A DNA stretch of 64,000 nucleotides from an uncultured virus (IMG/VR IMGVR_UViG_3300027734_000063) (taxonomy: Duplodnaviria; Heunggongvirae; Uroviricota; Caudoviricetes). Location of the stretch: the IMG/VR virus record IMGVR_UViG_3300027734_000063; one strand, 5' to 3'. Within the stretch, counting starts at the first letter, position 1; each line of letters starts with the position of its first letter. The notes under the pieces are model-generated. The model was not told the DNA's origin, did not search any database, and was given only the letters and a program-made list of their open reading frames with translations. Below are positions 1 through 64,000 of this stretch, in pieces. The position numbers and the translations under genes were made by a program.

Positions 1-126
1 ATTGTTGCCACCGATGGTAATGAGGATGTCATCTTCCGTAAGATGATTGAGCATACTGACTGCCCAGTTGGAGTCTATGAGTTCTTTTTGACCGATGATG
101 TTCTCATGCTCACTTCGGAGTATTGA
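1..126 (+). CDS. 5'-truncated hypothetical protein (DUF6876-like C-terminus)
   Basis: Frame 1 open from the window edge: IVATDGNEDVIFRKMIEHTDCPVGVYEFFLTDDVLMLTSEY*; DGN...IExTD.P...VLMLxSEY ending resembles a common phage family (recall, not searched). Confidence 0.6.
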   Translation: MVATDGNEDVIFRKMIEHTDCPVGVYEFFLTDDVLMLTSEY

Positions 127-127
127 G

Positions 128-307
128 ATGATGAGGGCTATCGTAGTGGACACCAATTCTCAAAGAGTAGGAGAGCATATTTGCCAGTCTTGGGCAGAGT
201 GCCATGAGTGGATTGATTCCTTTATTAATTGGAATGGTCTTATTCGCAAACAAGGGTATGTATGTGCTAGGGGAGAGATGCGTGTTTGGGTGGAGGAGAA
301 AAAGTAA
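128..307 (+). CDS. hypothetical protein
   Basis: ATG 1 nt after the upstream stop; TAA overlaps the next ATG. Confidence 0.6.
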   Translation: MMRAIVVDTNSQRVGEHICQSWAECHEWIDSFINWNGLIRKQGYVCARGEMRVWVEEKK

Positions 308-609
308 TGGCTACTTACTCTATCGGGGTTATGAAGTTCACCGAGCCATTGATTATGGAGGGGTCATGGGGTGAAAGGGATATCGGGACACACGAATCCA
401 CAATGGAATTGTTCTTTAATGATGATGCTACTGGCTTCATTGAATGGGACATTGAAGATGTGGGTTTTGAGCATATTGGTTTGTGGTTCTCGATTGATCC
501 AGTTGGCATACGCACACTGACTGAATACGATGGGGTGATGTGCTTATCCCATAAAGCCATTGAGATGTTGCGTAAATACGATGTAGTCGTGCCAAAGGAT
601 TTTGAGTAA
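307..609 (+). CDS. hypothetical protein
   Basis: GGAGGAG upstream, TAATG coupling; acidic 100 aa. Confidence 0.75.
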   Translation: MATYSIGVMKFTEPLIMEGSWGERDIGTHESTMELFFNDDATGFIEWDIEDVGFEHIGLWFSIDPVGIRTLTEYDGVMCLSHKAIEMLRKYDVVVPKDFE

Positions 610-762
610 TGGAGGGGGTTTTCTACGCAGATGTGGATAACCCCTTTTCCTGCCCCTTAGATGGGGCTAGGACAGTCGCATTGTCTGATGATGGGGAAAC
701 CTATATCGAGCAGTGCTTATTCTGCCAAAGGGTCTTTAAATTTCAATTTGAGGAGCATAACG

Positions 763-879
763 ATGTTCAATGAAAAAGAATGGTTAGTAAACGCAATACT
801 GGTGGTGGCTTGGGCATACATAGCATTTTTTATGTTCCCACAAGCCTTATATTTATTTATTCAAACTGGAGGGTTTTAA
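763..879 (+). CDS. small membrane protein (38 aa)
   Basis: GAGGAG RBS then MFNEKEWLVNAILVVAWAYIAFFMFPQALYLFIQTGGF; one hydrophobic helix. Confidence 0.6.
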   Translation: MFNEKEWLVNAILVVAWAYIAFFMFPQALYLFIQTGGF

Positions 880-880
880 C

Positions 881-1243
881 ATGGGTTGGACAGGACAAAC
901 ACCGCCTTACCACAAGGACAAAAAGAAGTGGCTAGAAGACGAGTTTAGGCAAGTTGGCGAAGTTGGCACTAATCCGTCATTTGAATTGACTGATGTATCT
1001 GTTAAGGGTCGTGAAGCATATGGGATTCTTAACATTGTCAAAGCAGACGGCACGAAGACTGGTTTTGGCATGGTCATGCTACTGGAGTGCAGTGCAAAGG
1101 AATGGGCATTAAAAGAGATGTCGGAAGACATGATGCCTTTTTATTACAACGCACCGAAGAAGATGATTCACAAACTGGATAGTCTTTATCCTGCCCGAAA
1201 CGAAAATGCCCTGAATTGGCGAAAGAAGTGTCTATCAAACTGA
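881..1243 (+). CDS. hypothetical protein (DUF6927-like)
   Basis: GGAGG RBS; MGW start and KEMSEDMMPFYYNAP...WR motif (recall). Confidence 0.7.
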   Translation: MGWTGQTPPYHKDKKKWLEDEFRQVGEVGTNPSFELTDVSVKGREAYGILNIVKADGTKTGFGMVMLLECSAKEWALKEMSEDMMPFYYNAPKKMIHKLDSLYPARNENALNWRKKCLSN

Positions 1244-1313
1244 TGAGCCTGTAAGGGCGAAACCACCTGAATCACCTTAATTGAGTGAACGATGCAGTAA
1301 GGTGGTCTTTGAT
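1234..1313 (+). ncRNA. type I hammerhead ribozyme
   Basis: Stem I ATCAAA 1234-1239/TTTGAT 1308-1313; CTGATGA 1240-1246; stem II GCCT-GTAA-GGGC; GAAA 1259-1262; stem III ACCACCT 1262-1268/AGGTGGT 1300-1306; GUC site ending at C1307. Confidence 0.92.
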
Positions 1314-1332
1314 TAACTGCTAGGAGATTGAA

Positions 1333-1800
1333 ATGGGTTTAGATATGTATTTATCAGCAAAACGCTACTTGTGGTCTGACAAAGACAAAGCGATATCGGA
1401 ACAAGTAGGCGAGATTATCGGGGTTCAGGGCGATCAGGAAAGACGATTCAATGGTTCAAGTCTGGTCGTGAAAGAGATATCCCTTGAAGCTATGTATTGG
1501 AGGAAAGCCAATGCCATTCATGGATGGTTCGTGAATGTAGTGCAGGATGGGGAGGATAACTGCCGAGAATACGAGGTAGAAAGAAGCCAGTTGCAAACCC
1601 TGCATGATTTGTGCAAGGACATACTGGAACATCCTGATGCCGAAAGGGATGCAGACCTAGAGCCAACGCAAGGGTTTTTCTTTGGTTCGTATGAAAAAGA
1701 CGAATGGTATTACCAAGACCTGAAGAACACTGTAGAGGGTTTGGAAAGGGTTTTGGCACTACCTGACGAATACTCATTTAGCTATCAAGCCAGTTGGTAA
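1333..1800 (+). CDS. conserved phage hypothetical protein
   Basis: TAGGAG RBS; MGLDMYL...YWRKANAIHGWF...GFFFGS...YQASW motif family. Confidence 0.85.
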   Translation: MGLDMYLSAKRYLWSDKDKAISEQVGEIIGVQGDQERRFNGSSLVVKEISLEAMYWRKANAIHGWFVNVVQDGEDNCREYEVERSQLQTLHDLCKDILEHPDAERDADLEPTQGFFFGSYEKDEWYYQDLKNTVEGLERVLALPDEYSFSYQASW

Positions 1801-1811
1801 AGGGGATAACC

Positions 1812-2087
1812 ATGCAAAATATTTGCGAAGACGGATATCAGGGCAATCACGATCCTGCATCCAGTAATGACGAAGTGATTGAGATGACTACCGATTCTCT
1901 TGATGATGGTTCGGTAGTTGTCAATCTCGATGTATGGGATACCGATCAACAATGCGTAGTCAAGATGGGTGGCTATGTCATGGTCAAGCAGGACGATGAA
2001 GAGAAGAGATTTTATGTTCTTGTCTATAACGGCAAAGGGGATGTTCTATCACAAACCCTTGTGCCATTTGACTTTGTGGAGTGCTGA
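1812..2087 (+). CDS. hypothetical protein
   Basis: AGGGG RBS before ATG 1812; tightly packed in operon. Confidence 0.7.
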   Translation: MQNICEDGYQGNHDPASSNDEVIEMTTDSLDDGSVVVNLDVWDTDQQCVVKMGGYVMVKQDDEEKRFYVLVYNGKGDVLSQTLVPFDFVEC

Positions 2088-2088
2088 T

Positions 2089-2376
2089 ATGCCAAAGATA
2101 CTTATCAAAGCGTATGACACTGTTATCCAAAACGAATGGTATGAGGATGGTGCATCCGTCCTTATCGGAGTTGCGGATAGAGACGATCATCCTGAAGAAG
2201 CTTTTTGGGGATGGGCAGATGAAAAGATTTACTTCTACCTTGATCCCGAAGAAATGGCAAACCTGAAAGTGGGCGATGTTCTTAACGATGGCGAAGACTT
2301 CACCATTGTCGAGATTGATAAAGACAATCCCCATATTTACGAAGTTGAATATGAATTGGAGACTGACCATGCCTAA
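2089..2376 (+). CDS. hypothetical acidic protein
   Basis: GGAG upstream of ATG 2089; operon packing. Confidence 0.7.
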   Translation: MPKILIKAYDTVIQNEWYEDGASVLIGVADRDDHPEEAFWGWADEKIYFYLDPEEMANLKVGDVLNDGEDFTIVEIDKDNPHIYEVEYELETDHA

Positions 2377-2542
2377 ATGGAATGTGATGATGACCACTGC
2401 CCAGTATATCGAAGTGGAAGCAGATACTCCTGCCAAAGCAGAGATGCAGGGGCTAAAGATGTATCAAAGTTGCGAAGTGCGACCTGAGTATCCCCTGTTT
2501 GTATGTGAAGAAGCTGACCTAATTGAAGAGGAGCAAGAATGA
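2369..2542 (+). CDS. small protein, MPKx-V...VEA...A family (DpnD/PcfM-like)
   Basis: MPKWNVMMTTAQYIEVEADTPAKAE; GGAG RBS. Confidence 0.65.
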   Translation: MPKWNVMMTTAQYIEVEADTPAKAEMQGLKMYQSCEVRPEYPLFVCEEADLIEEEQE

Positions 2543-2790
2543 AAGATATCAAAGACTACGACAAATACTGGCTAGAAGAAGCAAAGAAATTATTGCTTCA
2601 CAAACGCATTGTGAATGTTCGTTATTTAACGCAGGAAGAAGCAGATGACATGGGTTGGTATGAAAGAAGTGTTGCTTTCCAAACCCAAGATGGTTTGTGG
2701 TTTTTCCCTAGTCGTGATGATGAGGGTAATGGTGGAGGTGCGTTATTCACTTCTGATGAAAAACAAGGTTGTTTACCTGTAATGAGATAA
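2539..2790 (+). CDS. hypothetical protein
   Basis: GAGGAG RBS, ATGA overlap; PSRDDEGNGGGALF motif. Confidence 0.8.
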   Translation: MKDIKDYDKYWLEEAKKLLLHKRIVNVRYLTQEEADDMGWYERSVAFQTQDGLWFFPSRDDEGNGGGALFTSDEKQGCLPVMR

Positions 2791-2800
2791 GGAGAATCAC

Positions 2801-3094
2801 ATGGGTGCAGTAAATTTTTACCACATTGAAGTAGGCAAAAATGCCAAAGATGCTTTTAAGAAAGCAGTAGAGGAAGCCCAATACGATCATGGGCATAGTG
2901 GCTACACTGGCACGATTGCTGAGAAGAGCAGTTTTGTAATGATCCCTTTGCCTGATGGCATGACCCCGATGGAATTGGCTGACAAGTTGATGGAAGAAGA
3001 CGATCCACGAATCAACGACAAATGGGGGGATGCAGGATGTATAGCTATTCCTAACACCGATGAATATCTATTCTTTGGATGGGCAAGCGAATAA
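2801..3094 (+). CDS. hypothetical protein
   Basis: TAAGGAG RBS; GHSGYTGTIAEK and FFGWAS motifs. Confidence 0.8.
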   Translation: MGAVNFYHIEVGKNAKDAFKKAVEEAQYDHGHSGYTGTIAEKSSFVMIPLPDGMTPMELADKLMEEDDPRINDKWGDAGCIAIPNTDEYLFFGWASE

Positions 3095-3315
3095 TGGCAT
3101 ACGAAGTCCAAACCTACACCATCTGCGATGGATGGATGAATTGTTGGAGCATTGAAGACGATCATGGGATTTGCACTCCCATGATTTTTAGAACATACAC
3201 GGAAGCCCTAGAGGAGTTGACAGACTTTCTTGCTAATCAGCATGAAGCCTATACCAATGGTGCTATGGAAGATGCGTATGACCCACATGATTACCGAATT
3301 ATGGAGATTTTATGA
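3094..3315 (+). CDS. hypothetical protein
   Basis: TAATG coupling; 73 aa. Confidence 0.7.
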   Translation: MAYEVQTYTICDGWMNCWSIEDDHGICTPMIFRTYTEALEELTDFLANQHEAYTNGAMEDAYDPHDYRIMEIL

Positions 3316-3491
3316 AGAAAACACTTAAACAAATTGAAGATGAAATCAATCAAATTTATTACTACTACGACACTTGCAAAATGCAATATGGTGAATGGTC
3401 TTTGGGAGACAAAATTCGATTTGGACAGTTATACAAAATGAAAGAAAGAAGACTGGCTGAACATCAACATAAGGAGTTAGAAAATGCCTAG
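3312..3491 (+). CDS. hypothetical protein (59 aa, not in ORF track)
   Basis: GGAG RBS, ATGA overlap, open to TAG 3491. Confidence 0.65.
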   Translation: MKKTLKQIEDEINQIYYYYDTCKMQYGEWSLGDKIRFGQLYKMKERRLAEHQHKELENA

Positions 3492-3645
3492 TGATTTATT
3501 AGATGAATATTGTGAAGAAGAGTTTGGTCATACAGACTGGTCTATGGACTGGGATGAAGATGGCAACAGGGTCATTACTTTTTATCAAGAAGCAAGACAG
3601 TGTTATTTAGACGAAATGGCAGAAGAGGAGGAAGAAGATGCCTAA
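3484..3645 (+). CDS. hypothetical acidic protein (53 aa, not in ORF track)
   Basis: TAAGGAG RBS; MPSDLLDEYCEEEFGHTDWS... Confidence 0.7.
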   Translation: MPSDLLDEYCEEEFGHTDWSMDWDEDGNRVITFYQEARQCYLDEMAEEEEEDA

Positions 3646-3820
3646 ATATTTTGTAGTTTTTACCGAAGAATCCACAAAGGATTATGGCTACTATGTGGAA
3701 GCCAAAAACAAAGGTCAAGCCTATTTAAAAGCTGAAGATAAATACTTTAATTTTCAAGAAGCTGACAGTGTTAGCACTGGCTATGCCAAAACTTTAGGAC
3801 ATGAGGTGCAAAATGCCTAA
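3638..3820 (+). CDS. small protein, MPKx-V...VEA...A family
   Basis: GAGGAGG RBS; MPKYFVVFTEE...YVEAKNKGQAYLKA. Confidence 0.7.
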   Translation: MPKYFVVFTEESTKDYGYYVEAKNKGQAYLKAEDKYFNFQEADSVSTGYAKTLGHEVQNA

Positions 3821-4013
3821 ATATCGAGTATGTATAGCAAGGGAAGAGACCACCTTTTATTGGGTTGATGTCAATGCCAAAACCGAAAGCAAAGCTGAAG
3901 ACATGGCATGGGAAAGGTTCAATGAGGGTTCTTCTTCAATCATTGACAAGGGTGAAGTAGTTAATGCCGATGAATACATTGACAATGTAATCGAGGTGCA
4001 TGATGCCGACTAA
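3813..4013 (+). CDS. small protein, MPKx-V...VEA...A family
   Basis: GAGG RBS; MPKYRVCIAREE...VDVNAKTESKAEDMA. Confidence 0.7.
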   Translation: MPKYRVCIAREETTFYWVDVNAKTESKAEDMAWERFNEGSSSIIDKGEVVNADEYIDNVIEVHDAD

Positions 4014-4182
4014 ATGGAAAATAGTGCCATTCTTTGACTATGACGATTACTACCAAGTTGGCAGGACAGTCATGGTTGATGGCAAATATAAATTTGAATC
4101 AAAGGGCATCAAGTATCGGGACAAATCACAAGCCCAAACTTATGCGGACAAACTTAATAACAAGGAGAATCAAAATGCCTAA
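4000..4182 (+). CDS. hypothetical protein
   Basis: GAGG RBS; operon packing. Confidence 0.65.
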   Translation: MMPTKWKIVPFFDYDDYYQVGRTVMVDGKYKFESKGIKYRDKSQAQTYADKLNNKENQNA

Positions 4183-4759
4183 TTGGTGCGACAACACATT
4201 GTATTTATCACACACAGACCCAAAGATGGTGGACAAAGCCATTGAAGGATGGAAGAACAATAAATTCTTTGCAACACTGCGACCTGAGCCTGATTACACA
4301 CAGGTCAAAGTAAAGCCCACATTCCCAATGAACATGGCTACTGGGCAGGAAAAGCCTGAGTTTGTCGAACCAGACCAAGCATGGTGGGATTGGCGATTAC
4401 AGAACTGGGGAACAAAGTGGGAGATTGTCTCCGATGAAAGCTATATGGACATTCAAGAGAATGAGCATGGCAAATCTATCAGGGCATCGTTTTCTACTGC
4501 GTGGAGTCCTCCCACTGATTTGTATGAGTATCTGCATGAAGAGGGCTATGAGATCAAAGCCCATTACTATGAAGGTGGTTGTGCCTTTTGTGGATCATGG
4601 GAAGATGGTGTAGAGGACTTCTATAACATTGATCCACCTGAAGGCACGAAGACTAGCGTGTGGGTGCGTGAGAACATTCCTGAAGAACTGGATGCAGAGA
4701 TGGGTATTGCCGATAGCTATGAATCATTTGAAGACGAAGATGAAGAGGAGCAAGCATGA
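4175..4759 (+). CDS. YubB/DUF1281 (Api92-like) ferredoxin-fold protein
   Basis: AAGGAG RBS; MPNWCDN, WWDWRLQNWGTKW, FSTAWSPP, YYEGG...FCG motifs. Confidence 0.85.
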   Translation: MPNWCDNTLYLSHTDPKMVDKAIEGWKNNKFFATLRPEPDYTQVKVKPTFPMNMATGQEKPEFVEPDQAWWDWRLQNWGTKWEIVSDESYMDIQENEHGKSIRASFSTAWSPPTDLYEYLHEEGYEIKAHYYEGGCAFCGSWEDGVEDFYNIDPPEGTKTSVWVRENIPEELDAEMGIADSYESFEDEDEEEQA

Positions 4760-4926
4760 ACCAAGCCGACAAAGATGCAGAAAAATGGATGGAGATGAAT
4801 CAGAAAGTGCAGTATCGCAATCTGATTAAAGCCAAAGAACTAGGCGATCTTTATTACATTGACCAACATGGCACAGTCATCATTCACGATCCAAAGAAAG
4901 CAGAAGATGAACCTAAAGGACTGTAA
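4756..4926 (+). CDS. hypothetical protein (56 aa, not in ORF track)
   Basis: GAGGAG RBS, ATGA overlap, TAA 4924-4926. Confidence 0.6.
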   Translation: MNQADKDAEKWMEMNQKVQYRNLIKAKELGDLYYIDQHGTVIIHDPKKAEDEPKGL

Positions 4927-5188
4927 AGGCAAAGTGCCAGTCTTTGTGGGAGGGGATATTCACTACAAGTTTGTGGATTTCCCCACTAGGGAGCAGTTTG
5001 ACGAACTCTTTAAGCGTAATAACAAAACACTTCGGGATAAATACTGGGGTGTTTTAAAAATGCGGTCTAATGGGCATACACTGATAGAGACTGGTGAAGT
5101 TTATACCCTGACTAGAGAAAGAATTCGGCAGATTGAAGCTAAGTTTGTAAAGAAAGTAGCAGTTTCTTTAGAGACTGGGATGCTTTGA
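4907..5188 (+). CDS. sigma70 region-4-like HTH protein
   Basis: HTLIETGEVYTLTRERIRQIEAK matches the sigma70 region 4.2 TRERIRQIE motif. Confidence 0.75.
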   Translation: MNLKDCKGKVPVFVGGDIHYKFVDFPTREQFDELFKRNNKTLRDKYWGVLKMRSNGHTLIETGEVYTLTRERIRQIEAKFVKKVAVSLETGML

Positions 5189-7453: not shown

Positions 7454-8260
7454 TTACTTCTTCTTGGCTTGGGCTTTTAACTGACGAATCAGTTCTGCGT
7501 TCCTTTTCTGATACATATCTCTGCTATCACGCAAAGCTTTGTTATCAATCTCAAGGACACGAATCTGCTCACGCAAATTGATTACTGTATCGTGTATGTC
7601 CTCAACCTCAATCTCGCTTGCGTTCCATCGTTTGGTAGCGATGACATCTCTAGCTTGGGTTAGTTCCTTATCCAGTATGACGATGGTGTCTGTCAATTCC
7701 TGAATCTTTTCCTCTACTGGATCGGCTTCTGTAACCTCTACCTTGGGTTCTTCCTTCTTTTTGCCCAAGTTCTTGGTCTTCATCACAGTCTCTTTGCCGT
7801 CTTTAAGGTAGACAATCTCATCCTTTTGCGGTTCATCCAGTGACTTACGGATACGACCTATGGTCATGGCTGACACACCAATGTGCTTGGCAATGGTGGC
7901 ATTTGACCATTTGTTCCATTCAGAGTCCTTAAACATATTCAAGGCGATTTCACGCTTCTCTTCTGCCGTATGGGGTAGCCCATGATTGTTAGCGCCATAG
8001 GCGAACAGTTTGGCATCCCTGACAGTGCCGTCTTTGATGTCGCACTCAATGGAAACAATGTTATTGGTCTTGGTGGCAAAGTAGCGGTGGAATCCTGATG
8101 CAAGCCAGTAATCAGATCCATCAAAGAACACTGTAATGGGTGGGAATACGACCCCATCCTTCATTAAATCAGCGTATTCAGCTACTTTGTATTGGTTTAG
8201 TTCTTTTCTTGATTGTGTTCCGCCATCAATACGAATGACGGATATATTTAATTTTTTCAA
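7454..8260 (-). CDS. ParB/Srx-like N-terminal domain protein with HTH and coiled coil
   Basis: FPPITVFFDG...SGFHRY; SNATIAKHIGVSAMTIGRIR HTH; TTG start after GCTAGGAG RBS. Confidence 0.8.
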   Translation of the reverse strand: MKKLNISVIRIDGGTQSRKELNQYKVAEYADLMKDGVVFPPITVFFDGSDYWLASGFHRYFATKTNNIVSIECDIKDGTVRDAKLFAYGANNHGLPHTAEEKREIALNMFKDSEWNKWSNATIAKHIGVSAMTIGRIRKSLDEPQKDEIVYLKDGKETVMKTKNLGKKKEEPKVEVTEADPVEEKIQELTDTIVILDKELTQARDVIATKRWNASEIEVEDIHDTVINLREQIRVLEIDNKALRDSRDMYQKRNAELIRQLKAQAKKK

Positions 8261-8287
8261 TTCTTTCTCCTAGCAAATGGAAATTCC

Positions 8288-8315
8288 AGTTTAGCAAAAA
8301 ATAACAAACATACAA
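8288..8315 (-). promoter_or_regulatory. putative sigma70 promoter of ParB/helicase/primase operon
   Basis: Minus strand TTGTAT-16-TAAACT with TG extension. Confidence 0.5.
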
Positions 8316-8523
8316 CATAAATCTCATCCATAGTTACCCCAAGGGTGATAAGCATCACACCTGACCCAATGTATGAATACATCCAGTCCTACCTGAGTTA
8401 ATGTTCAATCGATGGATAGTTTGTCTCACCACTGGTCTATCCCTCTTGTGTAGTCCCCATTTAAGGCTACGAGGCTTGCAATCGGGTGAATGATTAGCCT
8501 ATGTTCTCTTCCACGCAACCCAG

Positions 8524-8601
8524 TTAGGTTCTTGATATCGTTTGGAGTACGGCAGGGAGAAGTAGGCACAAACATACGAACTTAATCGTTTGTCTACACA
8601 T
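8524..8601 (-). CDS. putative 25-aa hydrophobic (leader) peptide
   Basis: GCTAGGAGAAGTA-ATG; MCRQTIKFVCLCLLLPAVLQTISRT*. Confidence 0.35.
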   Translation of the reverse strand: MCRQTIKFVCLCLLLPAVLQTISRT

Positions 8602-8620
8602 TACTTCTCCTAGCCCGACT

Positions 8621-8649
8621 AGGTTACTACGGCTGAAAATTATTTGCAA
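8621..8649 (-). promoter_or_regulatory. putative sigma70 promoter
   Basis: Minus strand TTGCAA-17-TAACCT. Confidence 0.5.
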
Positions 8650-8657
8650 TAGTTTGA

Positions 8658-8774
8658 CAAAGAAAAACCCCCAGTTTTTTAGGCTGGGGGTTTAGGATCG
8701 TGTGTTGATCCGAGGGCTTGCATTGCACAAGTCTCTGCTAGGAGAAGTAATGTGCGTGTCAGAGTGGGCTGACC
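8658..8774 (-). ncRNA. candidate ~115-nt antisense sRNA
   Basis: Between extended -10 promoter (8780-8810) and terminator (8661-8693); stems GTCAG/CTGAC, GCACA/TGTGC, GGATC/GATCC; loop carries TTACTTCTCCTAGCAG. Confidence 0.6.
8661..8693 (-). terminator. intrinsic terminator
   Basis: AAACCCCCAG-CCTAAAAAA-CTGGGGGTTT followed by TTCTTT on minus strand. Confidence 0.8.
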
Positions 8775-8779
8775 TACTA

Positions 8780-8810
8780 AATATAGCACAAAACTACAAA
8801 ATTTTGTCAA
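8780..8810 (-). promoter_or_regulatory. putative extended -10 sigma70 promoter
   Basis: Minus strand TTGACA-19-TATATT with TG extension; spacer is long. Confidence 0.55.
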
Positions 8811-9097
8811 TATGTTGTATTTATGTGGTTATTCTCAAATAACCAGCCAATTGTTTTGCGGTGTGCTTCCTCCCACGCTTCAATACGTTCAGCCTTGGAG
8901 AGCAATTTGCCCTGGTCAATATCAGCATGGCAGGTGAAACATAGGGCAGCGCATCGGTAGTCATGGGCTTTAAGTCCTCTGCCTTTACCATCCCGAAGCT
9001 GATTGGAATGTGCAGCCACAACTGTGCCGTCTTCTCTACCACATATCTGGCATGGGGATTTTCTAAGTAAATCAAGTAATTTCCTATTTCGATACAT
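8807..9097 (-). CDS. Zn-binding HNH-like putative nuclease (DUF968/DUF1364-like)
   Basis: PCQICG, VAAH, GRGLKAHD, LCFTCH. Confidence 0.8.
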   Translation of the reverse strand: MYRNRKLLDLLRKSPCQICGREDGTVVAAHSNQLRDGKGRGLKAHDYRCAALCFTCHADIDQGKLLSKAERIEAWEEAHRKTIGWLFENNHINTTY

Positions 9098-9324
9098 TAA
9101 CAACGACCATCCATGTCGAAGTCTTCATCGTCTTTGTTAAGACGGACACTTTTGGATATATTGTGGTTTAACAAGGCAGAATAAGCCATTTGATAGGCAT
9201 CTCTTTCTTTTTCAACGAGCATTATTCTACCATTTAGGCGGTCTATTTCGTCCTGCTGAATCTTGATTTGCAGACGAAGATACTGTTCTTCCTCTTCTCT
9301 GTCTTGGGTTGTAAAGGTAGTCAT
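9097..9324 (-). CDS. hypothetical coiled-coil protein
   Basis: AAGGAGG RBS, overlap coupling. Confidence 0.7.
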   Translation of the reverse strand: MTTFTTQDREEEEQYLRLQIKIQQDEIDRLNGRIMLVEKERDAYQMAYSALLNHNISKSVRLNKDDEDFDMDGRC

Positions 9325-12687: not shown

Positions 12688-13559
12688 GCTTGTTCCTTCA
12701 AGTAATTTTGATATTGATTGCACCATTGACTAACAGGGCAATAGCTTGCACAACGAGTTCTTTCGCCTTTGCGTACTTCTATTTCATAGGCACTACCTAG
12801 TGGAAAGATGGCTTGATTAGCCTCTTCTGCCGTTTGGTATAGTGAGTGCGCCCTTTTACCGCCAATCTTCTTAATAGCCCAAACTGGTGGCTTTTCCCAC
12901 ATCTCTTCAGAAGTACATTCAGGCAAGTCTGCATCAGTTTCTAAAGCAAATTCACAAGCTGAATGAACAGAGATACGAGCTTTAATGAACTCTTCCCTTT
13001 CTTCCATAGTCCACAAGGTAATAGGCACTTCCTTGATTGGGGCTTCAGGGTAGCCTTCCTTGGTTTCTACTTCTCTAGCTTTCCAGTCACGCAGGATAGC
13101 CACAATGCCTAGATCGGTAACAGGCATCTGCCGAACCTTTTCCACTAGCCAAGCGTAGATGTTGAGTTGGTATTCCCATTCAATCTTCTCATTCATTACC
13201 GCCCAAACACTGGTGGTTTTGTAGTCTTTGATGGATACACCGCCCTCATGGTTGACCTGTAGGTCTACCGCACCGCTAATATGCCACCCTTCTAACTCGG
13301 CATGGATGCGTTGCTCGACTATGTGGTTCTCATCCTTGCCATGTTCTAGGATGTTATGGACGGCAGAGCCAAACAATGACCAAACCATGTCGGCTACATC
13401 CTGCTCAATATCTTCATCGTACTTCTTGGTCAGGGCAACAATCTTGGGACTGTTAATCAACTGAGTAACAGACAGATTAGCCTTACCTTTGGAGTAAGTT
13501 GGTCTTTCTAAGACATTAACGAATGTCTGTGGAATGTTAAATTTATTAGTTAGCTTCAT
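12684..13559 (-). CDS. PD-(D/E)XK (Cas4/RecB-like) exonuclease
   Basis: GSAVH, E...SGAVDL...DYKT, QLNIY, RCASYCPVSQWC; upstream of annealase. Confidence 0.85.
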   Translation of the reverse strand: MKLTNKFNIPQTFVNVLERPTYSKGKANLSVTQLINSPKIVALTKKYDEDIEQDVADMVWSLFGSAVHNILEHGKDENHIVEQRIHAELEGWHISGAVDLQVNHEGGVSIKDYKTTSVWAVMNEKIEWEYQLNIYAWLVEKVRQMPVTDLGIVAILRDWKAREVETKEGYPEAPIKEVPITLWTMEEREEFIKARISVHSACEFALETDADLPECTSEEMWEKPPVWAIKKIGGKRAHSLYQTAEEANQAIFPLGSAYEIEVRKGERTRCASYCPVSQWCNQYQNYLKEQA

Positions 13560-13589
13560 TTAGTTCTCCCTAGCAGTAAACTGAGTTAA

Positions 13590-14016: not shown

Positions 14017-14047
14017 AGGGGTAGCCTAAAAAACTACCCCTTTTTTT
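14017..14047 (+). terminator. intrinsic terminator between convergent genes
   Basis: GGGGTAG-CCTAAAAAA-CTACCCC-TTTTTTT. Confidence 0.8.
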
Positions 14048-17000
14048 ACAATCCAGCTTTGAGACGGAATCTAATAGTGTCTTGCAAAATCTCTTCTTTT
14101 TTACCTTTTAAGAAGTTGATTTCTTTGCGCTTTTCTTGAGCAGACATCTCTTTTTCTGGCAAGTCCTCAATCCTACGGATCTGACCAGTAATTGCATTAA
14201 GAGATGCGCCAGCTGACTGAGTAAATCCATTAGCCTGGATAAGACCTTTGTTAGCCTCAAACCACTTCTTACCTTGTGTTGGGTTCATGTTCTTCATCTC
14301 TGTCTTAAAGGTAGTCATAGCAACGTCAGAACGTGCTTTAAGGTCATAGAAAAGATCTTCCCTGCCACGAGGAACTTCTGGAGCTACAAACGAGCCATAG
14401 AGAGGATTGTTGCGTTCTTCCTTAGTTGGCTTATTGCTAGACAGAAGATCACTCATCCACATAGTTAAGCCAGCGACAGAGCCAAACAAGCCACGAGCTA
14501 AATGGTCAGCCTCAATTGGGCTAAGAATTCGTTTTTTGCTACCTTCTACAAGCTCACCCTTGTCATCTTTTTTGCCTGTAAATGGAACTTGGGTGGCAGC
14601 GCTTAACCATTTTCCTAACTGGGAGACATTGGCATTGTATTGTCTATAAGCTTCTAGGTGCTTCATGCTTTCAGGAACTACCTTACCGCCAGTAAAGAAG
14701 TTATGGTTGATACCAATCTCAACAAATGGCTTGAACACTGTTGGCACTGGACCAGAAGCCAGAGGTCCTAACAGGGCATCAATACCGCCATGTCTAAGAG
14801 CTTTCCAGAAGCGGGTTGCATCAACTTCATTCTTAGTGCCTTGGGTAATGATCCTGTTGTAAGTCATCTCAGGGATAGCTTTAACTAGGTATCCAGCAGT
14901 CGTTGTCAAAGGAATAAGCAATGAATGGTCATAGCCAATCTGTTTCATTAACTTTCTTGGGACAAAGAAGTTACGCATCTTGGTCTGGTCATCTAACCTT
15001 TGGTATTCCTCATCATCACCAATGGCAAACAGATACATCAGCATACCAATCTGCATACAGGCAATTGCCGTAGCTAAACGCTCAATAGCTTCTGTACGAG
15101 CTTGACCTTTTAGACCACCGCTAACGCTTTTTACTTTAGCACCTGTAGTCTTTTCTACCCCATAGGCAACAGGTTCTAGTAAAGCTTGGGACAGAACGTC
15201 AATCTGTTGGGCAAATGCGTTCATAAAGGAGATAGAGTGGGCTAAAGTCTGGGCAACTTTGGACGAACCCTTTTTATCCCAGTTAATCACATTGGCAGAA
15301 GCTAACAGGGCTTTACGCTGATCCCCTTTAGTTTCTTTCATTACACGCAGATAAGTAGCTCTGCGAGGAGCCATGTCGGAGGCATCGCCAATCTTCTCTA
15401 ACAAAGAAATAGTCTGTTGCAGCTTTGATCCATTTAACAAACCAATGGTTTGGTCGTAATACTGCATTGAAGTTCTAGAGCTGGAATAGATATTGCCAAT
15501 GCCATGCGCCTTAAGTATCTTCACTACTGGGTCATTGTTGTTTAAAGACTTAACGAAAGACCCAAATACCGAGCCATAAAAGCTTAATGGGTTTCTAACA
15601 CCAGTAACAAGGATGGTGCTTGGAATATCCATAAACAACTGTCTTAACTGGAATACTCCAGAGTAAGTAATGGTTCTACGCAGGGTCTGTGCGCCAAAGC
15701 CCATCAATCCCATTAAAGGAATGTTCATGCTTTCCATGCCAATCACGGCTTGAGCAATCAATGGATCTACGATGCGGATATTGATCTTGCGACCATTTAC
15801 CAGAATTTTGACGATGCCACGAGCAAAGTCTTCTTTTGGATAGACTTTAAGCTTACCTTTTTCATTGCGCTCACCATATTCAGATGCAATACGATTAGCA
15901 GCGTAGTTCTTAATGACGTTTCTAGAGGTCAAAACGACATGATTAACCATGTTGTCCAGGACATTGTTTAATGCCAACTCAACTTCACCTGGCTTAAATT
16001 TATGCTCCCTGGAGACGTTACGGACACCTTTAGCACCATAGAAGAATGTAGGCTTACTAGGATCTTGGCTAATATCTTCTGGTTGGATTCGCTGCCAAGG
16101 CACATAGTCATCAATCTTGCGATACATATCAGCAGTTTGTTTGCTAATAATCTTGCCAAACTCCATCATGTTGACCATGTTTCGGCTTACATCATTCCAA
16201 ATATCCATCATCTCTCTAAGAACAGGATATTTCTTTTCTAAAGCTATTAGATCGTCAATCTCAGTATCTTTAAGGTTAACTTTCTGACGAGCAATATCAA
16301 TGCCTTCAAAGTTTTCTTGGGCGTTTTGAATTGCAACTGTCAACGCCAACTGACGATCTGGAGGCAAGTCTGGGTCTAAAGCTTCTGTCTTTAATGTTTC
16401 AAGTTCACCTTGGCGCTTGAGGTATTCATTCACAATGCTGCGTGAACGCTTGGCTTCAAAGTAACCATTGATTACCCTAAAAGCGTGTTTAACACCTACT
16501 TCTTTGCCAAATTCATGGGCAAGCTGAATGATCTTACCAGTAGAGTTCTTGTCTTCTGTAGCTTTAAACATCTGATTAACTGGGTCAAATGCCAACTTGC
16601 CTAAAGTAACTACTTGAGTAGCAATGTGGTTAGCCTTTAACTGCTGGTCTGCTGCGATAGAAGCAACAGCACGACCTTCGCCATCTAACAGCTCTCTGTC
16701 ATATCTAACAGCATCTTCAGCTGCCAGACCTGCTGTAAAGTCAGTTGCTTTAACTCGGAATCCTAATGCCAGCTTGTCTATGCCAGTCACTGCACCAGGA
16801 ATCAGGTTTCTTGGGGATTCCAATATTCTGGTTTTGATGTTCTTAGCCGTTTGATAACCGCCCATGAGGTAGTCTTGGACAGTATTGTTGGTATGCACTG
16901 GAGGTTGCTCAACTCCAATCTTATCGAGCAATTTCACATCATCGGCAATATTGAACAACAACTCATTTGACGGACCTGTCATATCAAAGAAGTGCTTCAA

Positions 17001-42722: not shown

Positions 42723-43802
42723 TTAAGATGCAGCAATGTAACAACCACTACATAAAATATAACTACCGCTTAGATTTGCGTTAGTTGGTAAAGTGCTTGT
42801 ATTAAAAGTATTAGCTTGAGCATTAGTAGATGATTGGTTAACTTGCCATACTAAATTTACGCTATTGGCGTTTCTACCAAACAGATAATTATAATTTTGC
42901 CCAGTAGCTGTTGAAAAAGGAAGCCCACCAAGCACAGCAGATCCAGCATTACTATTACCTGGGTAACTAAAATAAGCATTTATAAATACTAAAGTTCCAA
43001 CTTTGACGTAGTTAGCTCCTGATACGCTAAACGTTAACCCAGCACCAGAACCATCTACAGGTGTCCAAGTGCCTTCTTCATAATCATCAAGCGTATTAGC
43101 ATTAGACGAAGCAGCTTGGGTTGCTGGAAATGCAATTTGACCACCAGTTAAATTAATAGTTGGTATTGTGGCTTGCCCAGTTAGCGTAGGGGCTGCGCTT
43201 AAAACAACAGAACCCGTACCAGTAGAAGTAGTTACCCCAGTACCGCCATTAGCAACAGGCAATACACCAGAAATCAAAGTACCAGCTAAGTTAATAGCAC
43301 CAGCCGAGTTTGAGATAGCGTTAGCTACAGAACTGATTTGGAAAGACTCTACAGTAACCAGATTACCAGCCGCAGCGCCCGTAGCAAGAACAACAGTAGT
43401 TCCGTTAGTAGCAGTATAGTCAGCAGAACCTAAAAGCACACCATTCAAATAAACGTTAATAAAACCTACGGTGTAGCTAGGAGGGGTGAATGTAGTCTGT
43501 GATGCAGTAGCTGTAAACTCAGTTACGGTTCTGTATGCTGTGGTTGTTACGCCTGTTACTGGAACGCCAAGATAGCGGCATGAGATATTGCCTGTACCCG
43601 ATGGGGGAGCAGTTGAGAAAGTAAGTGTGTTACCAACTACACCATAAGTAGATGGGTCTTGTAGTACACCAGAAACCGCAACTAAGACGTTAGTAACCCC
43701 AGCAGGAGCCACCGACATTGTGTAGGCCGTAGTAGAGCCGTCACCAGAGAATTGGTCGGTAACAAAAGCCGATTGGTATATGGGGTTTCCGATGTATGGC
43801 AT
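42723..43802 (-). CDS. tail fibre protein
   Basis: MPYIGN, FSGDGSTTAYT, VLQDP, LDDYEEGTWTP, YVKVG, LPF motifs. Confidence 0.8.
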   Translation of the reverse strand: MPYIGNPIYQSAFVTDQFSGDGSTTAYTMSVAPAGVTNVLVAVSGVLQDPSTYGVVGNTLTFSTAPPSGTGNISCRYLGVPVTGVTTTAYRTVTEFTATASQTTFTPPSYTVGFINVYLNGVLLGSADYTATNGTTVVLATGAAAGNLVTVESFQISSVANAISNSAGAINLAGTLISGVLPVANGGTGVTTSTGTGSVVLSAAPTLTGQATIPTINLTGGQIAFPATQAASSNANTLDDYEEGTWTPVDGSGAGLTFSVSGANYVKVGTLVFINAYFSYPGNSNAGSAVLGGLPFSTATGQNYNYLFGRNANSVNLVWQVNQSSTNAQANTFNTSTLPTNANLSGSYILCSGCYIAAS

Positions 43803-63898: not shown

Positions 63899-63942
63899 TC
63901 ACCTGATGACTTGTTAATTAACCACCTGCTAGGAGTTTACTA

Positions 63943-64000
63943 ATGAATCTACTGCCATCACTTGTATCACCAATGGACATCCACCAATGTATTAAGCATT
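63943..64000 (+). CDS. 3'-truncated hypothetical protein
   Basis: CTGCTAGGAG RBS then ATG; open to the window end. Confidence 0.55.
   Translation, partial: MNLLPSLVSPMDIHQCIKH

What the first reader, a model, noticed from the sequence alone, without database searches (positions are those of the whole stretch)
8597..8810. Candidate anti-Shine-Dalgarno sRNA matching a GCTAGGAG motif at five gene starts
Seen: a minus-strand promoter (8780-8810) and terminator (8661-8693) bracket ~115 nt of four hairpins. One loop, closed by GCACA/TGTGC, displays UUACUUCUCCUAGCAG. This region is exactly complementary over 18 nt to the RBS+ATG at 8597-8614, over 11 nt to 1317-1327 (gene after the hammerhead), 11 nt to 8265-8275 (ParB/helicase/primase operon), 10 nt to 63926-63935, and with one bulge to 13564-13576 (exonuclease/Sak operon). 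I did not see the GCT-extended motif at late structural gene starts. Inference: one sRNA could switch off translation of several early and replication operons, analogous to P1 c4 or P4 CI immunity RNAs. The alternative is that the motif is a protein-binding box.
Basis: partly seen in the sequence, partly recalled or inferred. Interest (0 to 1): 0.8.

Follow-up and report, generated by a model that had tools for sequence, protein, structure and literature searches.

The report
Phage small RNA with swappable address loop
An uncultured freshwater phage encodes a small RNA whose exposed loop pairs with the start of the neighbouring replication-gene transcript, and the loop and its partner change together between relatives like a key and lock; the same loop also matches a shared motif at the start of several early genes.

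Summary
An exact 18-nt inverted repeat (8597-8614 / 8737-8754) lies in a minus-strand unit with a sigma-70-like promoter, four hairpins and a strong terminator.

The unit is conserved between an HNH gene and a ParB-helicase-primase operon in about 40 related viral and metagenome contigs. No Rfam family matches it.

The loop has two parts:
- **Invariant part.** CCUAGCAG is the same in every relative.
- **Hypervariable part.** It co-varies with a site about 120 nt downstream: 22 loop/site combinations, and 8 of 19 pairs changed on both sides.

That site is not a conserved ribosome-binding site. It is the 5' arm of a hairpin that starts a second transcript, made from a conserved promoter (P2), which leads into ParB.

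Three near-identical genomes differ almost only in these two cassettes, and one is a mismatched recombinant.

The invariant part is complementary to CUGCUAGG. In nine genomes, 34 of the 40 copies outside this locus sit 15-19 nt before a start codon. In the window that is 5 of 34 early-block genes and 0 of 55 late genes.

Best reading: a c4-like, same-strand pairing sRNA that controls the replication leader. It probably also damps a small early regulon.

No transcript data were obtainable, and the direction of regulation is inferred.

The parts
8780..8810 (-). P1, promoter of the sRNA: -35 TTGACA 8810-8805, extended -10 TGcTATATT 8788-8780
   Evidence: Read from the sequence. Both hexamers and the following TTAGT are conserved in relatives while the spacer varies. 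The consensus scan did not list it, because the spacer is 19 nt.
8658..8774 (-). sRNA of about 115 nt: HP1 8773-8758, HP2 8755-8725, HP3 8711-8695, terminator 8693-8665 plus U-run
   Evidence: Fold -36.6 kcal/mol, z -3.5. Covariance model R1 scores it 126 bits and finds one copy per related genome. Terminator and HP3 show compensatory changes. The 5' and 3' ends are inferred.
8737..8755 (-). A'1, the pairing surface in HP2: a hypervariable stretch (about 8751-8745) followed by invariant CUCCUAGC(AG)
   Evidence: Among class-I relatives the variable columns are 41% identical and the adjacent block is 95% identical. In the A'1-A helix, 8 of 19 pairs changed on both sides.
8621..8649 (-). P2, candidate promoter of the leader: TTGCAA 8649-8644, 17-nt spacer, TAACCT 8626-8621
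   Evidence: TTGCAAA and TAA.CT are invariant in the 8 sequences of alignment A1 with a variable 17-nt spacer, and recur in the 19 further homologues. A 50-60 nt insertion in L071 and L096 lies between terminator and P2. The element also occurs in divergent classes. Promoter activity is inferred.
8596..8614 (-). A, the partner site (GCUAGGAGAAGUAAUGUGU), probably at or near the 5' end of the P2 transcript
   Evidence: Exact complement of A'1. It co-varies with the loop in 22 combinations.
8551..8615 (-). HP-T, the leader's 5' hairpin. Its 5' arm is A. Its 3' arm (A'2, UACUUCUCC 8564-8556) repeats the loop sequence.
   Evidence: Fold in every class-I relative. Of 22 pairs, 14 changed on both sides; 76.7% of cells pair against at most 55% when the partner is slid. 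The sense strand folds better in 17 of 20. Direct repeat D4 and inverted repeat I3.
8300..8548 (-). Rest of the leader: a conserved structured RNA domain ('module 2')
   Evidence: 83-86% nucleotide identity to L005 and L007, with compensatory changes, where ParB is only 69-73% identical. No Rfam match.
8258..8276 (-). ParB start region UUUGCUAGGAGAAAGAAUUG (start codon 8260-8258), a candidate second site for the loop
   Evidence: 11 nt exact, and 14 of 16 complementary to the loop (I5). Net cofold energy -14.3 kcal/mol.
1317..1335 (+). Start region of gene 1333-1800 with CUGCUAGGAGA
   Evidence: 11 nt exact. Net energy -14.0. The orthologous gene carries the motif in G004, G007, G010 and G011.
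13557..13576 (-). Start region of the exonuclease gene (first gene of the recombination operon) with CUGCUAGGGAG
   Evidence: Net energy -10.3.
63926..63951 (+). Start region of the first + strand gene after the divergent promoter region, with CUGCUAGGAG
   Evidence: Net energy -12.0.
264..295 (+). Start region of gene 286-609: GCUAGGGGAG plus a long further match to the sRNA's 5' half
   Evidence: Strongest predicted partner in the window, net -27.4 kcal/mol. No counterpart was seen in relatives.

Best explanation
This is a real, uncatalogued phage small RNA of about 115 nt on the minus strand. It is made from its own sigma-70-type promoter P1 and probably also from read-through of the upstream HNH operon. 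It ends at a strong intrinsic terminator.

Its second hairpin presents a pairing surface in two parts.

**Private part.** The hypervariable part, together with CUAGC, pairs with site A. Site A lies at the very start of a second transcript, launched from promoter P2 about 45 nt behind the terminator. That transcript is the roughly 350-nt structured leader of the ParB-helicase-primase operon. In the leader alone, A is held in a hairpin (HP-T) by a downstream copy of the loop sequence (A'2). The sRNA therefore has to capture A, most likely while the leader is being made, starting from the exposed CUAGCA loop. This refolds or exposes the leader and lowers expression of the replication genes. The route could be cleavage of the long duplex, or the freed CU-rich A'2 covering the ParB ribosome-binding site.

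**Public part.** The invariant CUCCUAGCAG can also cover (A)ACUGCUAGGAG at the ribosome-binding sites of three to five first genes of early operons. That would give a shared early-gene shut-off.

**Shown here:** conservation, synteny, RNA structure, loop/site co-variation, cassette exchange, and motif placement.

**Inferred:** separate transcription, transcript ends, the sign of regulation, and action on the other gene starts.
For: **Gene-like anatomy is conserved.**
- P1 hexamers, four hairpins and the terminator recur in all homologues.
- The terminator and HP3 carry compensatory changes, for example 8 and 7 double changes at single terminator pairs.
- There is one copy per genome.
- An HNH gene lies upstream in 21 of 23 loci, and ParB downstream wherever the flank reaches.

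**The A'1-A pairing co-varies.**
- Of 19 pairs, 8 changed on both sides.
- For the whole structure, 89.2% of cells pair against 30-47% when the partner is slid, and 0 of 500 shuffles reach the observed value.
- With the constant parts removed, cognate duplexes average -13.3 kcal/mol against -6.45 for non-cognate; 0 of 20000 permutations match this.
- With metagenome loci added there are 22 combinations, at -13.6 against -6.8.

**The specificity patch is hypervariable.** The patch is 41% identical, next to a block that is 95% identical.

**Cassettes are exchanged between near-identical genomes.** The window, L104 and L056 are near-identical outside the loop and HP-T. The window and L104 each carry a matched pair of a different type. 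L056 carries the L104 loop with the window's HP-T.

**P2 looks like an independent promoter.** It is invariant with a fixed 17-nt spacer, and insertions fall between the terminator and P2.

**HP-T is an RNA-level structure**.

**The public motif sits at gene starts.**
- CTGCTAGG occurs 51 times in nine genomes: 9 are the sRNA gene's own antisense, 2 are site A, 34 lie 15-19 nt before a start codon, and 6 are elsewhere.
- In nine related records the pattern read backwards is far rarer: 1-4 matches per record for GCTAGGRR in G002-G005, and 0-2 for CTGCTAGG in G007-G011.
- In the window, 5 of 34 early-block starts carry GCTAGG against 0 of 55 late-block starts.
- The loop's invariant part is more constant than site A itself, which varies as GGAG, GGAA, GGGA, GGUG or none. 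That points to a further constraint on the loop.
Against: - **No transcript evidence.** The one metatranscriptome run found did not cover the element.
- **The consensus scan missed both signals.** It called neither P1 nor the terminator. P2's -10 is weak (TAACCT).
- **No wobble bias.** Among transition mismatches between loop and site, G-U (15) is no commoner than A-C (17), so this test does not separate RNA pairing from repeated DNA boxes.
- **Strand test does not favour the sRNA strand.** The sRNA region folds at least as well on the opposite strand in 20 of 20 sequences. I attribute this to base composition.
- **L056 is mismatched.** It is a natural genome whose loop does not fit its own site.
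- **Capturing A costs energy.** HP-T has to be opened, so the predicted net energy is only -12.4 kcal/mol.
- **The other gene starts overlap the background.** They give -10.3 to -14.3, while the 84 motif-less starts reach -13.6 (mean -6.6, sd 2.9).
- **No co-variation at the other starts.** They do not follow the variable part of the loop.
- **The motif may have another reader.** Its AA prefix is conserved although class-I loops cannot pair with it.
- **The refolding prediction is weak.** Blocking A lowered predicted ParB start-site accessibility in 5 of 6 leaders, but the drop was 0.05 or less in two of them.
Confidence: 0.6

Rival explanations
1. One reading: a multi-target anti-Shine-Dalgarno repressor. 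Its business is to block ribosome binding at five or six gene starts, the 8597-8614 site being one more translated start, as an immunity RNA of the P1 c4 or P4 CI kind.
For: The invariant CUCCUAGCAG is complementary to the motif at early gene starts in all nine genomes examined. No late gene in the window has it. The loop's invariant part is more constant than site A.
Against: - The ATG and frame after site A are not conserved: 25 codons, ATG-TAG, 5 codons, or none.
- L005's site has no GGAG.
- Site A is buried in a conserved hairpin.
- The hypervariable, co-varying part of the loop has no role in this reading.
- Predicted energies at the other starts overlap the background.
- No integrase, repressor or antirepressor was found in the window. 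No tyrosine integrase (PF00589) was found in any of 5 related records, 3 of them at least 99% complete and one with terminal repeats.
Confidence: 0.13
2. There is no separate sRNA. P1 makes one long leader that reads through the terminator, and A'1, A and A'2 are alternative pairings inside a cis-acting riboregulator of the ParB operon. The structured domain downstream might sense a signal.
For: All three elements lie on one strand within 220 nt. The full-length fold pairs A'1 with A at -80.1 kcal/mol, z -7.75. A conserved structured domain follows: module 2 here, RF02932 in relatives.
Against: - A strong conserved terminator with a U-run lies between A'1 and A.
- It is transcribed before A, so the pairing cannot control it.
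- Conserved promoter-like hexamers follow it at a fixed spacing.
- Insertions of 50-60 nt between terminator and P2 are tolerated.
Confidence: 0.12
3. The roles are reversed. The leader's 5' end is a decoy (sponge) that mimics the gene-start motif with extra private complementarity. It soaks up the sRNA and so relieves repression of the early genes once P2 fires.
For: In classes II and III, site A carries the full public motif AACUGCUAGGAG without being a gene start. It is the highest-affinity site on paper, with an 18-19 bp duplex of -36.5 kcal/mol.
Against: A is pre-sequestered by A'2 in the leader, which is odd for a sponge. The element is always joined to the replication operon. Nothing found here separates this reading from the best explanation except parsimony.
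Confidence: 0.08
4. The repeats act in DNA. The loop sequence, its inverted copy and its direct copy are boxes for a sequence-specific protein, such as an origin or partition-site binder like the adjacent ParB-like protein. Their joint change reflects co-evolution with that protein.
For: Three copies (two direct, one inverted) lie next to replication genes. The G-U versus A-C test is neutral.
Against: - One copy sits exactly in the loop of a compensated hairpin, inside a promoter-terminator unit.
- HP-T tolerates many G-U pairs and folds better on the sense strand in 17 of 20.
- The window and L104 have near-identical flanks, with the same leader sequence as far as the locus reaches, yet different cassettes. 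L104's own ParB was not fetched.
Confidence: 0.05
5. The real product is the + strand 30-codon ORF at 8750-8842, for example a small hydrophobic toxin with the minus-strand RNA as its antisense partner.
For: The ORF has a GGAG 7 nt upstream and a hydrophobic tail in the window.
Against: - A 30-codon ORF in this frame is seen only in the window, its near-identical copies and L067.
- 8 of the 20 sequences have at most 11 codons, L014 has 16, and the three class-II sequences have no start.
- The longer ORFs differ in sequence.
- L056 loses the ATG through the loop change.
Confidence: 0.01

Closest known systems
c4 antisense RNA of phages P1 and P7 (Rfam C4 family)
   Same: It is a small RNA encoded on the same strand as its target and just upstream of it. 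Loops carry the complementary sequences. Related phages differ in loop and target together, which sets specificity (heteroimmunity). This is as described in passages of the review PMC12197685.
   Different: - Here the RNA has its own promoter and terminator. By recall, c4 is cut out of the operon leader.
- No C4 match was found in an Rfam search of 8200-8900 at E up to 10.
- The regulated operon encodes ParB, helicase and primase, not an antirepressor.
- The private target is a 5'-terminal hairpin arm, not a ribosome-binding site.
- The phages look lytic.
CI RNA of satellite phage P4 with seqA/seqB/seqC (recalled, not read here)
   Same: A three-element design on one strand, in which a small RNA's loop pairs with sequences in the leader of the replication operon it controls.
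   Different: P4 has target-RNA-target (A-B-C). Here the order is loop copy, target, loop copy (A'1-A-A'2), so the leader holds its own competitor. P4 acts through premature termination, and no terminator was seen here after HP-T.
Countertranscript control of plasmid replication (pT181/pIP501 attenuation, R1 CopA-CopT; recalled)
   Same: A small RNA must catch the 5' part of a nascent replication-gene leader before an internal competitor pairs with it. Specificity variants define incompatibility groups.
   Different: Those RNAs are transcribed from the opposite strand of the target. Here the complementarity comes from an inverted repeat on the same strand, and the host element is a phage that is apparently lytic.
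Betaproteobacteria-1 RNA motif (Rfam RF02932)
   Same: In relatives G002, G003 and G005 this orphan motif lies in the same leader, directly after HP-T (89-93 bits).
   Different: It does not cover the sRNA or HP-T. The window's own leader carries an unrelated structured domain instead.
Seed-type sRNAs with C-rich loops that cover ribosome-binding sites (for example RsaE/RoxS)
   Same: A CU-rich exposed loop complementary to GGAG-containing start regions of several genes, followed by a terminator with a U-tail.
   Different: Only a chance-level Rfam match was found, and on the opposite strand (24 bits against a threshold of 79). Here the seed extends upstream of the Shine-Dalgarno sequence into a phage-specific CUGCUA.

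Membership tests
   No hit at gathering score in the whole window. C4 was not among the 7 matches at E up to 10 in 8200-8900.
Rfam C4 antisense RNA | Encoded on the same strand, upstream of its target, in the leader region of the operon it controls | tested here: met
   The sRNA lies 8774-8658, site A 8614-8596, and ParB starts at 8260, all on the minus strand.
Rfam C4 antisense RNA | Loop and target change together between related phages | tested here: met
Rfam C4 antisense RNA | Released from the leader by processing; controls an antirepressor or immunity in a temperate phage | tested here: not met
   The unit has its own promoter-like and terminator signals. No antirepressor, repressor or integrase was found. 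Processing itself cannot be tested with these tools.
Rfam RF02932 Betaproteobacteria-1 RNA | Match to the family model in the window's leader | tested here: not met
   No match in 8200-8900 at E up to 10. Relatives match at 89-93 bits.
Trans-acting seed-pairing sRNA | Independent transcript with its own promoter and an intrinsic terminator with a U-tail | tested here: inconclusive
   The sequence signals are conserved, but no expression data exist.
Trans-acting seed-pairing sRNA | Conserved single-stranded seed complementary to conserved sites in several mRNAs | tested here: met
   CCUAGCAG is invariant in the 19 homologues of alignment A3 and recurs in the four divergent members L005, L007, L019 and L024. 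34 of 40 CTGCTAGG sites outside the locus lie at gene starts.
Trans-acting seed-pairing sRNA | Dependence on an RNA chaperone such as Hfq; repression of the targets | not testable with these tools
   Needs experiments.
Countertranscript-driven attenuation (pT181 type) | Binding of the small RNA frees a segment that forms a terminator before the regulated gene | tested here: inconclusive
   No hairpin with a U-run was seen between HP-T and ParB. With A blocked, the window's freed A'2 is predicted to pair with the ParB GGAGAA instead, but accessibility changes are small.
Type I toxin-antitoxin | Conserved small ORF opposite the RNA | tested here: not met

The most novel reading that the evidence does not exclude
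The loop and HP-T pair is an RNA key and lock for self/non-self discrimination between co-infecting phages that are otherwise near-identical. Each lineage's sRNA addresses only its own kind's replication-operon leader. This would be heteroimmunity or incompatibility written in RNA, in phages without any lysogeny module. Frequency-dependent selection would then drive swapping of the two short cassettes, of which the window, L104 and the mismatched L056 are snapshots. The invariant half of the same loop would double as a public off-switch for the early regulon.
Probability: 0.25. Interest if true: 0.85.

Novelty: new variant of a known kind. Interest (0 to 1): 0.68.

Why it matters
- Base-pairing control of a phage's own genes is known mainly from a few temperate coliphages. 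Here is a well-supported case in abundant uncultured freshwater phages that appear lytic, attached to the replication module.
- Nature has already produced at least 17 different loops with matching partners on a constant scaffold. That is a ready-made set of candidate orthogonal RNA regulators, and a direct test bed for how RNA specificity evolves.
- It places the orphan Rfam motif RF02932, and a second uncatalogued structured RNA, in a defined setting: the leader of a ParB-helicase-primase operon, just behind the sRNA's docking hairpin.
- The public motif gives a simple sequence marker for the early regulon of this phage group.

Tried and rejected
**Expression data.** One metatranscriptome run held 5% of the sampled words. 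Laid on 7800-9300, it gave a single 151-nt contig over 7800-7909 and nothing on the element. No conclusion can be drawn.

**Rfam.** There was no family at gathering score in the window. At E up to 10 only chance-level hits appeared, for example RsaE at 24 bits against a threshold of 79, on the wrong strand.

**Bacterial genomes.** The sRNA core pattern gave 0 matches in 185,579 species' genomes, so there is no prophage or host clue from that route.

**The window's own genome** is not held.

**Wobble test of RNA against DNA repeats.** 15 G-U against 17 A-C, which is neutral.

**Strand test by folding energy.** It favours the antisense strand for the sRNA region in 20 of 20. I set this aside as an effect of the C/A-rich sense strand, because promoter, U-run and gene direction all point to the minus strand.

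**The + strand ORF.** Not conserved.

**A matched partner for L056's odd loop.** An exact 17-mer search in viral contigs found only the gene itself. A near-matched partner turned up later in metagenome locus L104.

**Extension of the other gene-start sites into the variable part of the loop.** Some reach 12-14 nt (G009, G010, G011), but there is no consistent pattern.

I replaced it with a short-word BLAST of the ideal target.

**Folding the leader with A blocked.** Predicted ParB start accessibility fell in 5 of 6 leaders, in two of them by 0.05 or less, and rose in 1. This is too weak to fix the mechanism.

**Papers.**
- The name 'Betaproteobacteria-1' appears in 3 unrelated papers.
- The main text of Weinberg et al. 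2017 (PMC5737381) does not mention it, and its supplement could not be read. That supplement may hold context for RF02932.
- One search for phage-encoded sRNAs acting on early genes listed 15 papers; none describes this element by title or abstract.

**Earlier notes of this scan.** Look-ups by place and by sequence found nothing.
Full report
**Setting.** The window is a phage genome.
- Terminase, portal, capsid, an SU10-type adaptor and a 3683-residue ORF lie on the minus strand from 14046 to 63570.
- A recombination and replication block on the minus strand runs from 13559 to 5139: exonuclease, Sak, small genes, HNH, then ParB-like, helicase, primase.
- A block of small genes lies on the + strand from about 63949 through the window end, and from 95 to 4926.
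- No integrase, repressor or antirepressor was found in the window.
- No tyrosine integrase was found in any of 5 related records. Three of these are at least 99% complete and one has direct terminal repeats.
- The nearest cultured phages are HTVC023P/027P-type pelagiphages, at about 55% identity in the large terminase.
- The finding lies in the 546-nt gap between the HNH gene (8807-9103) and the ParB-like gene (7454-8260).

**Check of the observation.**
- The 18-nt arms 8597-8614 and 8737-8754 are exactly complementary.
- On the minus strand I read TTGACA (8810-8805), a 19-nt spacer, TGcTATATT (8788-8780), about 115 nt of RNA, then a 10-bp G+C-rich stem (8693-8665) followed by UUUUUCUUU.
- The RNA folds into four hairpins at -36.6 kcal/mol, z -3.5. 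The second has a GCACA/UGUGC outer stem and a UCUC/GAGA inner stem, with CUAGCA as its end loop.
- The simple consensus scan listed neither the promoter nor the terminator, because the spacer and the loop length fall outside its rules.
- GCTAGGAG occurs 6 times against 1.5 expected, and 2 of 100 shuffles reach 6. GCTAGGGAG (13574-) and GCTAGGGGAG (266+) are added to these.
- The stated 11-, 11- and 10-nt matches and the bulged match are exact.

**The element is conserved and syntenic.**
- A search with the ParB-like protein gave 36 related viral loci.
- The sRNA core pattern gave 23 viral loci, one of them a false positive, and 21 metagenome loci. It gave none in 185,579 bacterial and archaeal genomes.
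- An HNH gene lies upstream in 21 of 23 viral loci, and ParB lies downstream wherever the flank reaches.
- A covariance model found exactly one copy per genome, plus four more divergent members: L019, L024, L005 and L007.
- Promoter hexamers, the TTAGT after the -10, all four hairpins and the terminator recur. The terminator and the third hairpin keep pairing through double changes.
- No Rfam family matches.

**The loop has two parts.** Among class-I relatives the 9 columns just 5' of CUCCUAGC are 41% identical, which is close to random. The next 30 columns (CUCCUAGCAG...GCAAG) are 95% identical.

**The variable part co-varies with a site about 120 nt downstream on the same strand.**
- On a 15-sequence alignment, the 19-pair helix between loop (A'1) and site (A) has 8 pairs changed on both sides.
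- Counted with the sRNA's own helices, 89.2% of cells pair, against 30-47% when the partner is slid by 1-3 columns. 0 of 500 shuffles reach the observed values.
- Using only the variable parts, cognate duplexes average -13.3 kcal/mol and non-cognate ones -6.45. 0 of 20000 permutations match this.
- With the metagenome loci there are 22 distinct loop/site combinations and 17 distinct loops, at -13.6 against -6.8.

**What the site is.** It is not a conserved translation start.
- After the GGAG-like bases, the window has ATG and 25 codons.
- L023 has ATG-TAG, L014 has 5 codons, and several relatives have no ATG. The frame shifts between relatives.
- In L005 the site reads CUGCUAGCCGAUAG, with no GGAG at all, yet it still matches its own loop.

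In every class-I relative, the site is instead the 5' arm of a hairpin of about 25 bp (HP-T, 8615-8551).
- The 3' arm of HP-T repeats the loop sequence (A'2, UACUUCUCC at 8564-8556).
- HP-T has 14 of 22 pairs changed on both sides and many G-U pairs. It folds better on the sense strand in 17 of 20 sequences.
- In the more divergent classes, A and a fuller second copy (including CCUAGCA) close a longer-range helix.

**A second promoter.** Between the terminator and A lie TTGCAA(A) and TAWYCT.
- Both are invariant in the 8 sequences of the first alignment and recur in the 19 further homologues.
- They are exactly 17 nt apart, and end 6 nt (class I) or 12 nt (class II) before GCUAGG. The spacer sequence varies.
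- Two relatives carry 50-60 nt insertions between the terminator and this element.

I read this as a second promoter, P2. Its transcript would begin at or just before A and run through a structured leader of about 350 nt into ParB. This is inference from conservation.

**Cassette exchange.** The alignment of the window, L056 and L104 is the most telling result.
- The three are near-identical in the sRNA body, P2 and the leader downstream.
- L104 carries a different loop and a different HP-T, and these fit each other (two mismatches in 19).
- L056 carries the L104-type loop with the window-type HP-T, so its pair is mismatched (-22.5 against -34.1 kcal/mol).
- Earlier, L056 stood out as 98.8% identical to the window over 570 nt, with its differences clustered in the loop.

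Two short specificity determinants are therefore exchanged on a constant background. This is expected if specificity itself is under selection.

**The public motif.** The invariant loop part is complementary to CUGCUAGG.
- Across the window and eight related genomes (G002-G005, G007, G009-G011), CTGCTAGG occurs 51 times.
  - 9 are the antisense of the sRNA gene itself.
  - 2 are site A.
  - 34 lie 15-19 nt before a start codon of an ORF.
  - 6 are elsewhere.
- The same pattern read backwards occurs 0-2 times per genome.
- The sites mostly read (A)ACUGCUAGGAG. They mark ParB, the first gene of the exonuclease operon, the gene behind a hammerhead-like element, and a few other first genes.
- In the window, GCTAGG lies within 25 nt upstream of 5 of 34 early-block starts and 0 of 55 late-block starts.
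- Among 20 starts with AGG(G)AG, the prefix is GCT in 4.
- The loop's invariant part is more constant than site A, which reads GGAG, GGAA, GGGA, GGUG or none. This argues that the loop answers to these other sites too.

**Against a strong claim for the public motif.**
- The sites do not follow the variable part of the loop.
- The AA prefix is conserved although class-I loops cannot pair with it.
- Net cofold energies for the motif-bearing starts are -10.3 to -14.3 kcal/mol. They overlap the tail of the other 84 starts (mean -6.6, sd 2.9, minimum -13.6).
- The start of gene 286-609 is an outlier at -27.4, because it also matches the sRNA's 5' half. No counterpart was seen in relatives.

**Mechanism, and how sure each step is.**
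- I am fairly confident (about 0.8) that A'1-A is a selected RNA-RNA contact.
- I am moderately confident (about 0.7) that the sRNA and the leader are separate transcripts.
- The leader holds its own competitor for A. The sRNA therefore most likely acts during leader synthesis, nucleating at the CUAGCA end loop and extending into the variable part.
- The outcome is most simply negative for the ParB-helicase-primase operon. The routes I can see are cleavage or decay of the 18-19 bp duplex, loss of a protective 5' hairpin, or release of the CU-rich A'2.
- In the window's constrained fold, the freed A'2 pairs with the ParB GGAGAA. Predicted accessibility fell in 5 of 6 leaders, but in two of them by 0.05 or less.
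- The sign of regulation is not shown.
- Action on the other gene starts I put at about 0.45.

**Rivals.**
- A cis-only leader is disfavoured by the terminator, by P2 and by the tolerated insertions.
- A decoy role for the leader cannot be excluded.
- DNA boxes for a protein are not excluded by the wobble test (15 G-U against 17 A-C). They fit poorly with the compensated hairpins around the loop, with the G-U-rich HP-T, and with cassette differences between genomes whose flanks and leader are near-identical as far as the loci reach (L104's own ParB was not fetched).
- The + strand ORF is not conserved.

**Comparison with known systems.**
- The closest is c4 of P1 and P7: same strand, upstream of its target, loop-borne complementarity, and specificity that differs between relatives by matched changes (review PMC12197685, passages read).
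- P4 CI and plasmid countertranscripts are close in logic (recalled, not read).
- This element is not a member of the C4 family by model search.
- It has its own promoter and terminator, it controls a replication operon in phages without lysogeny genes, and its private target is a 5' hairpin arm.

I therefore rate it a new variant of a known kind.

**Earlier notes of this scan.** They describe other phage sRNAs with loops aimed at ribosome-binding sites. One (e1-5826676) describes a terminator-ended leader RNA whose loop co-varies with two downstream sites. These are parallels that I did not test.

**Limits.**
- There are no expression data.
- The host is unknown. The only hint is that relatives carry the motif named Betaproteobacteria-1.
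- All energies are predictions.
- Related sequences are not independent, so shuffle counts overstate significance.
- The supplement of PMC5737381 could not be read and may bear on RF02932.

Noticed in passing
window 8300-8548 (-): A conserved structured RNA domain of about 250 nt in the ParB leader. It is 83-86% identical to L005 and L007, with compensatory changes (for example GGAUAG...CUAUCC against CUUGAG...CUCAAG). A G+C-rich look-alike lies upstream of ParB in L012. No Rfam match.
   Followed up: partly
L043:6451-6567, L045:7876-7992, L050:607-729: In relatives G002, G003 and G005, the same position in the leader (directly after HP-T) holds the orphan Rfam motif RF02932, Betaproteobacteria-1 RNA, at 89-93 bits. 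This places the motif in a phage replication-operon leader.
   Followed up: partly
window 1225-1269 (+): A hammerhead-like core (CUGAUGAG...CGAAAC) scoring 24 bits, below the 48.5-bit threshold, just upstream of the motif-bearing gene 1333-1800. Similar cores precede motif-bearing genes in G003 (about 35330) and G005 (about 9560).
   Followed up: partly
window 264-295 (+): The start region of gene 286-609 matches about 30 nt of the sRNA's 5' half, not only the loop (net -27.4 kcal/mol). It may be a decayed inverted copy of part of the sRNA gene. It was not seen in relatives.
   Followed up: partly
window 8278-8288: The palindrome TGGAAATTCCA lies directly upstream of the ParB motif. It is conserved in L004, L007, L008, L019, L024 and others, and could be a protein operator.
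   Followed up: no
L056 (= L002/L039) and L104: L056 is a natural recombinant whose sRNA loop does not fit its own leader. L104 carries that loop with a fitting hairpin on the same near-identical background.
   Followed up: yes
window 8768-8763 (HP1 loop) and RF02932 hairpin 2 in relatives: The HP1 loop (CCCACA or UUCCCC) is complementary to the conserved loop CUGUGGGA or CUGGGGAA of RF02932 in 13 of 15 relatives read by eye. This amounts to one co-varying change and two exceptions (L014, L064). It may be a second contact between sRNA and leader.
   Followed up: partly
window 14046-25097 (-): A single 3683-residue ORF in the late block. It was not scanned against protein families here.
   Followed up: no
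window 4859-5188 (+): A 109-residue ORF with a sigma-70 region-4 match (26.2 bits against a cut-off of 24.1). It lies at the end of the + strand early block and overlaps the end of the primase gene on the other strand.
   Followed up: no
window 43476-43483 (+): The sixth exact GCTAGGAG lies on the strand opposite a late gene (42723-43802) and is followed by an ATG 9 nt later. It is probably chance.
   Followed up: no
L037 (G006, a 91.9-kb record classed as provirus): A single exact copy of the 18-mer in an unrelated record. The covariance model found no sRNA there, so it is probably a chance match in a very large collection.
   Followed up: partly
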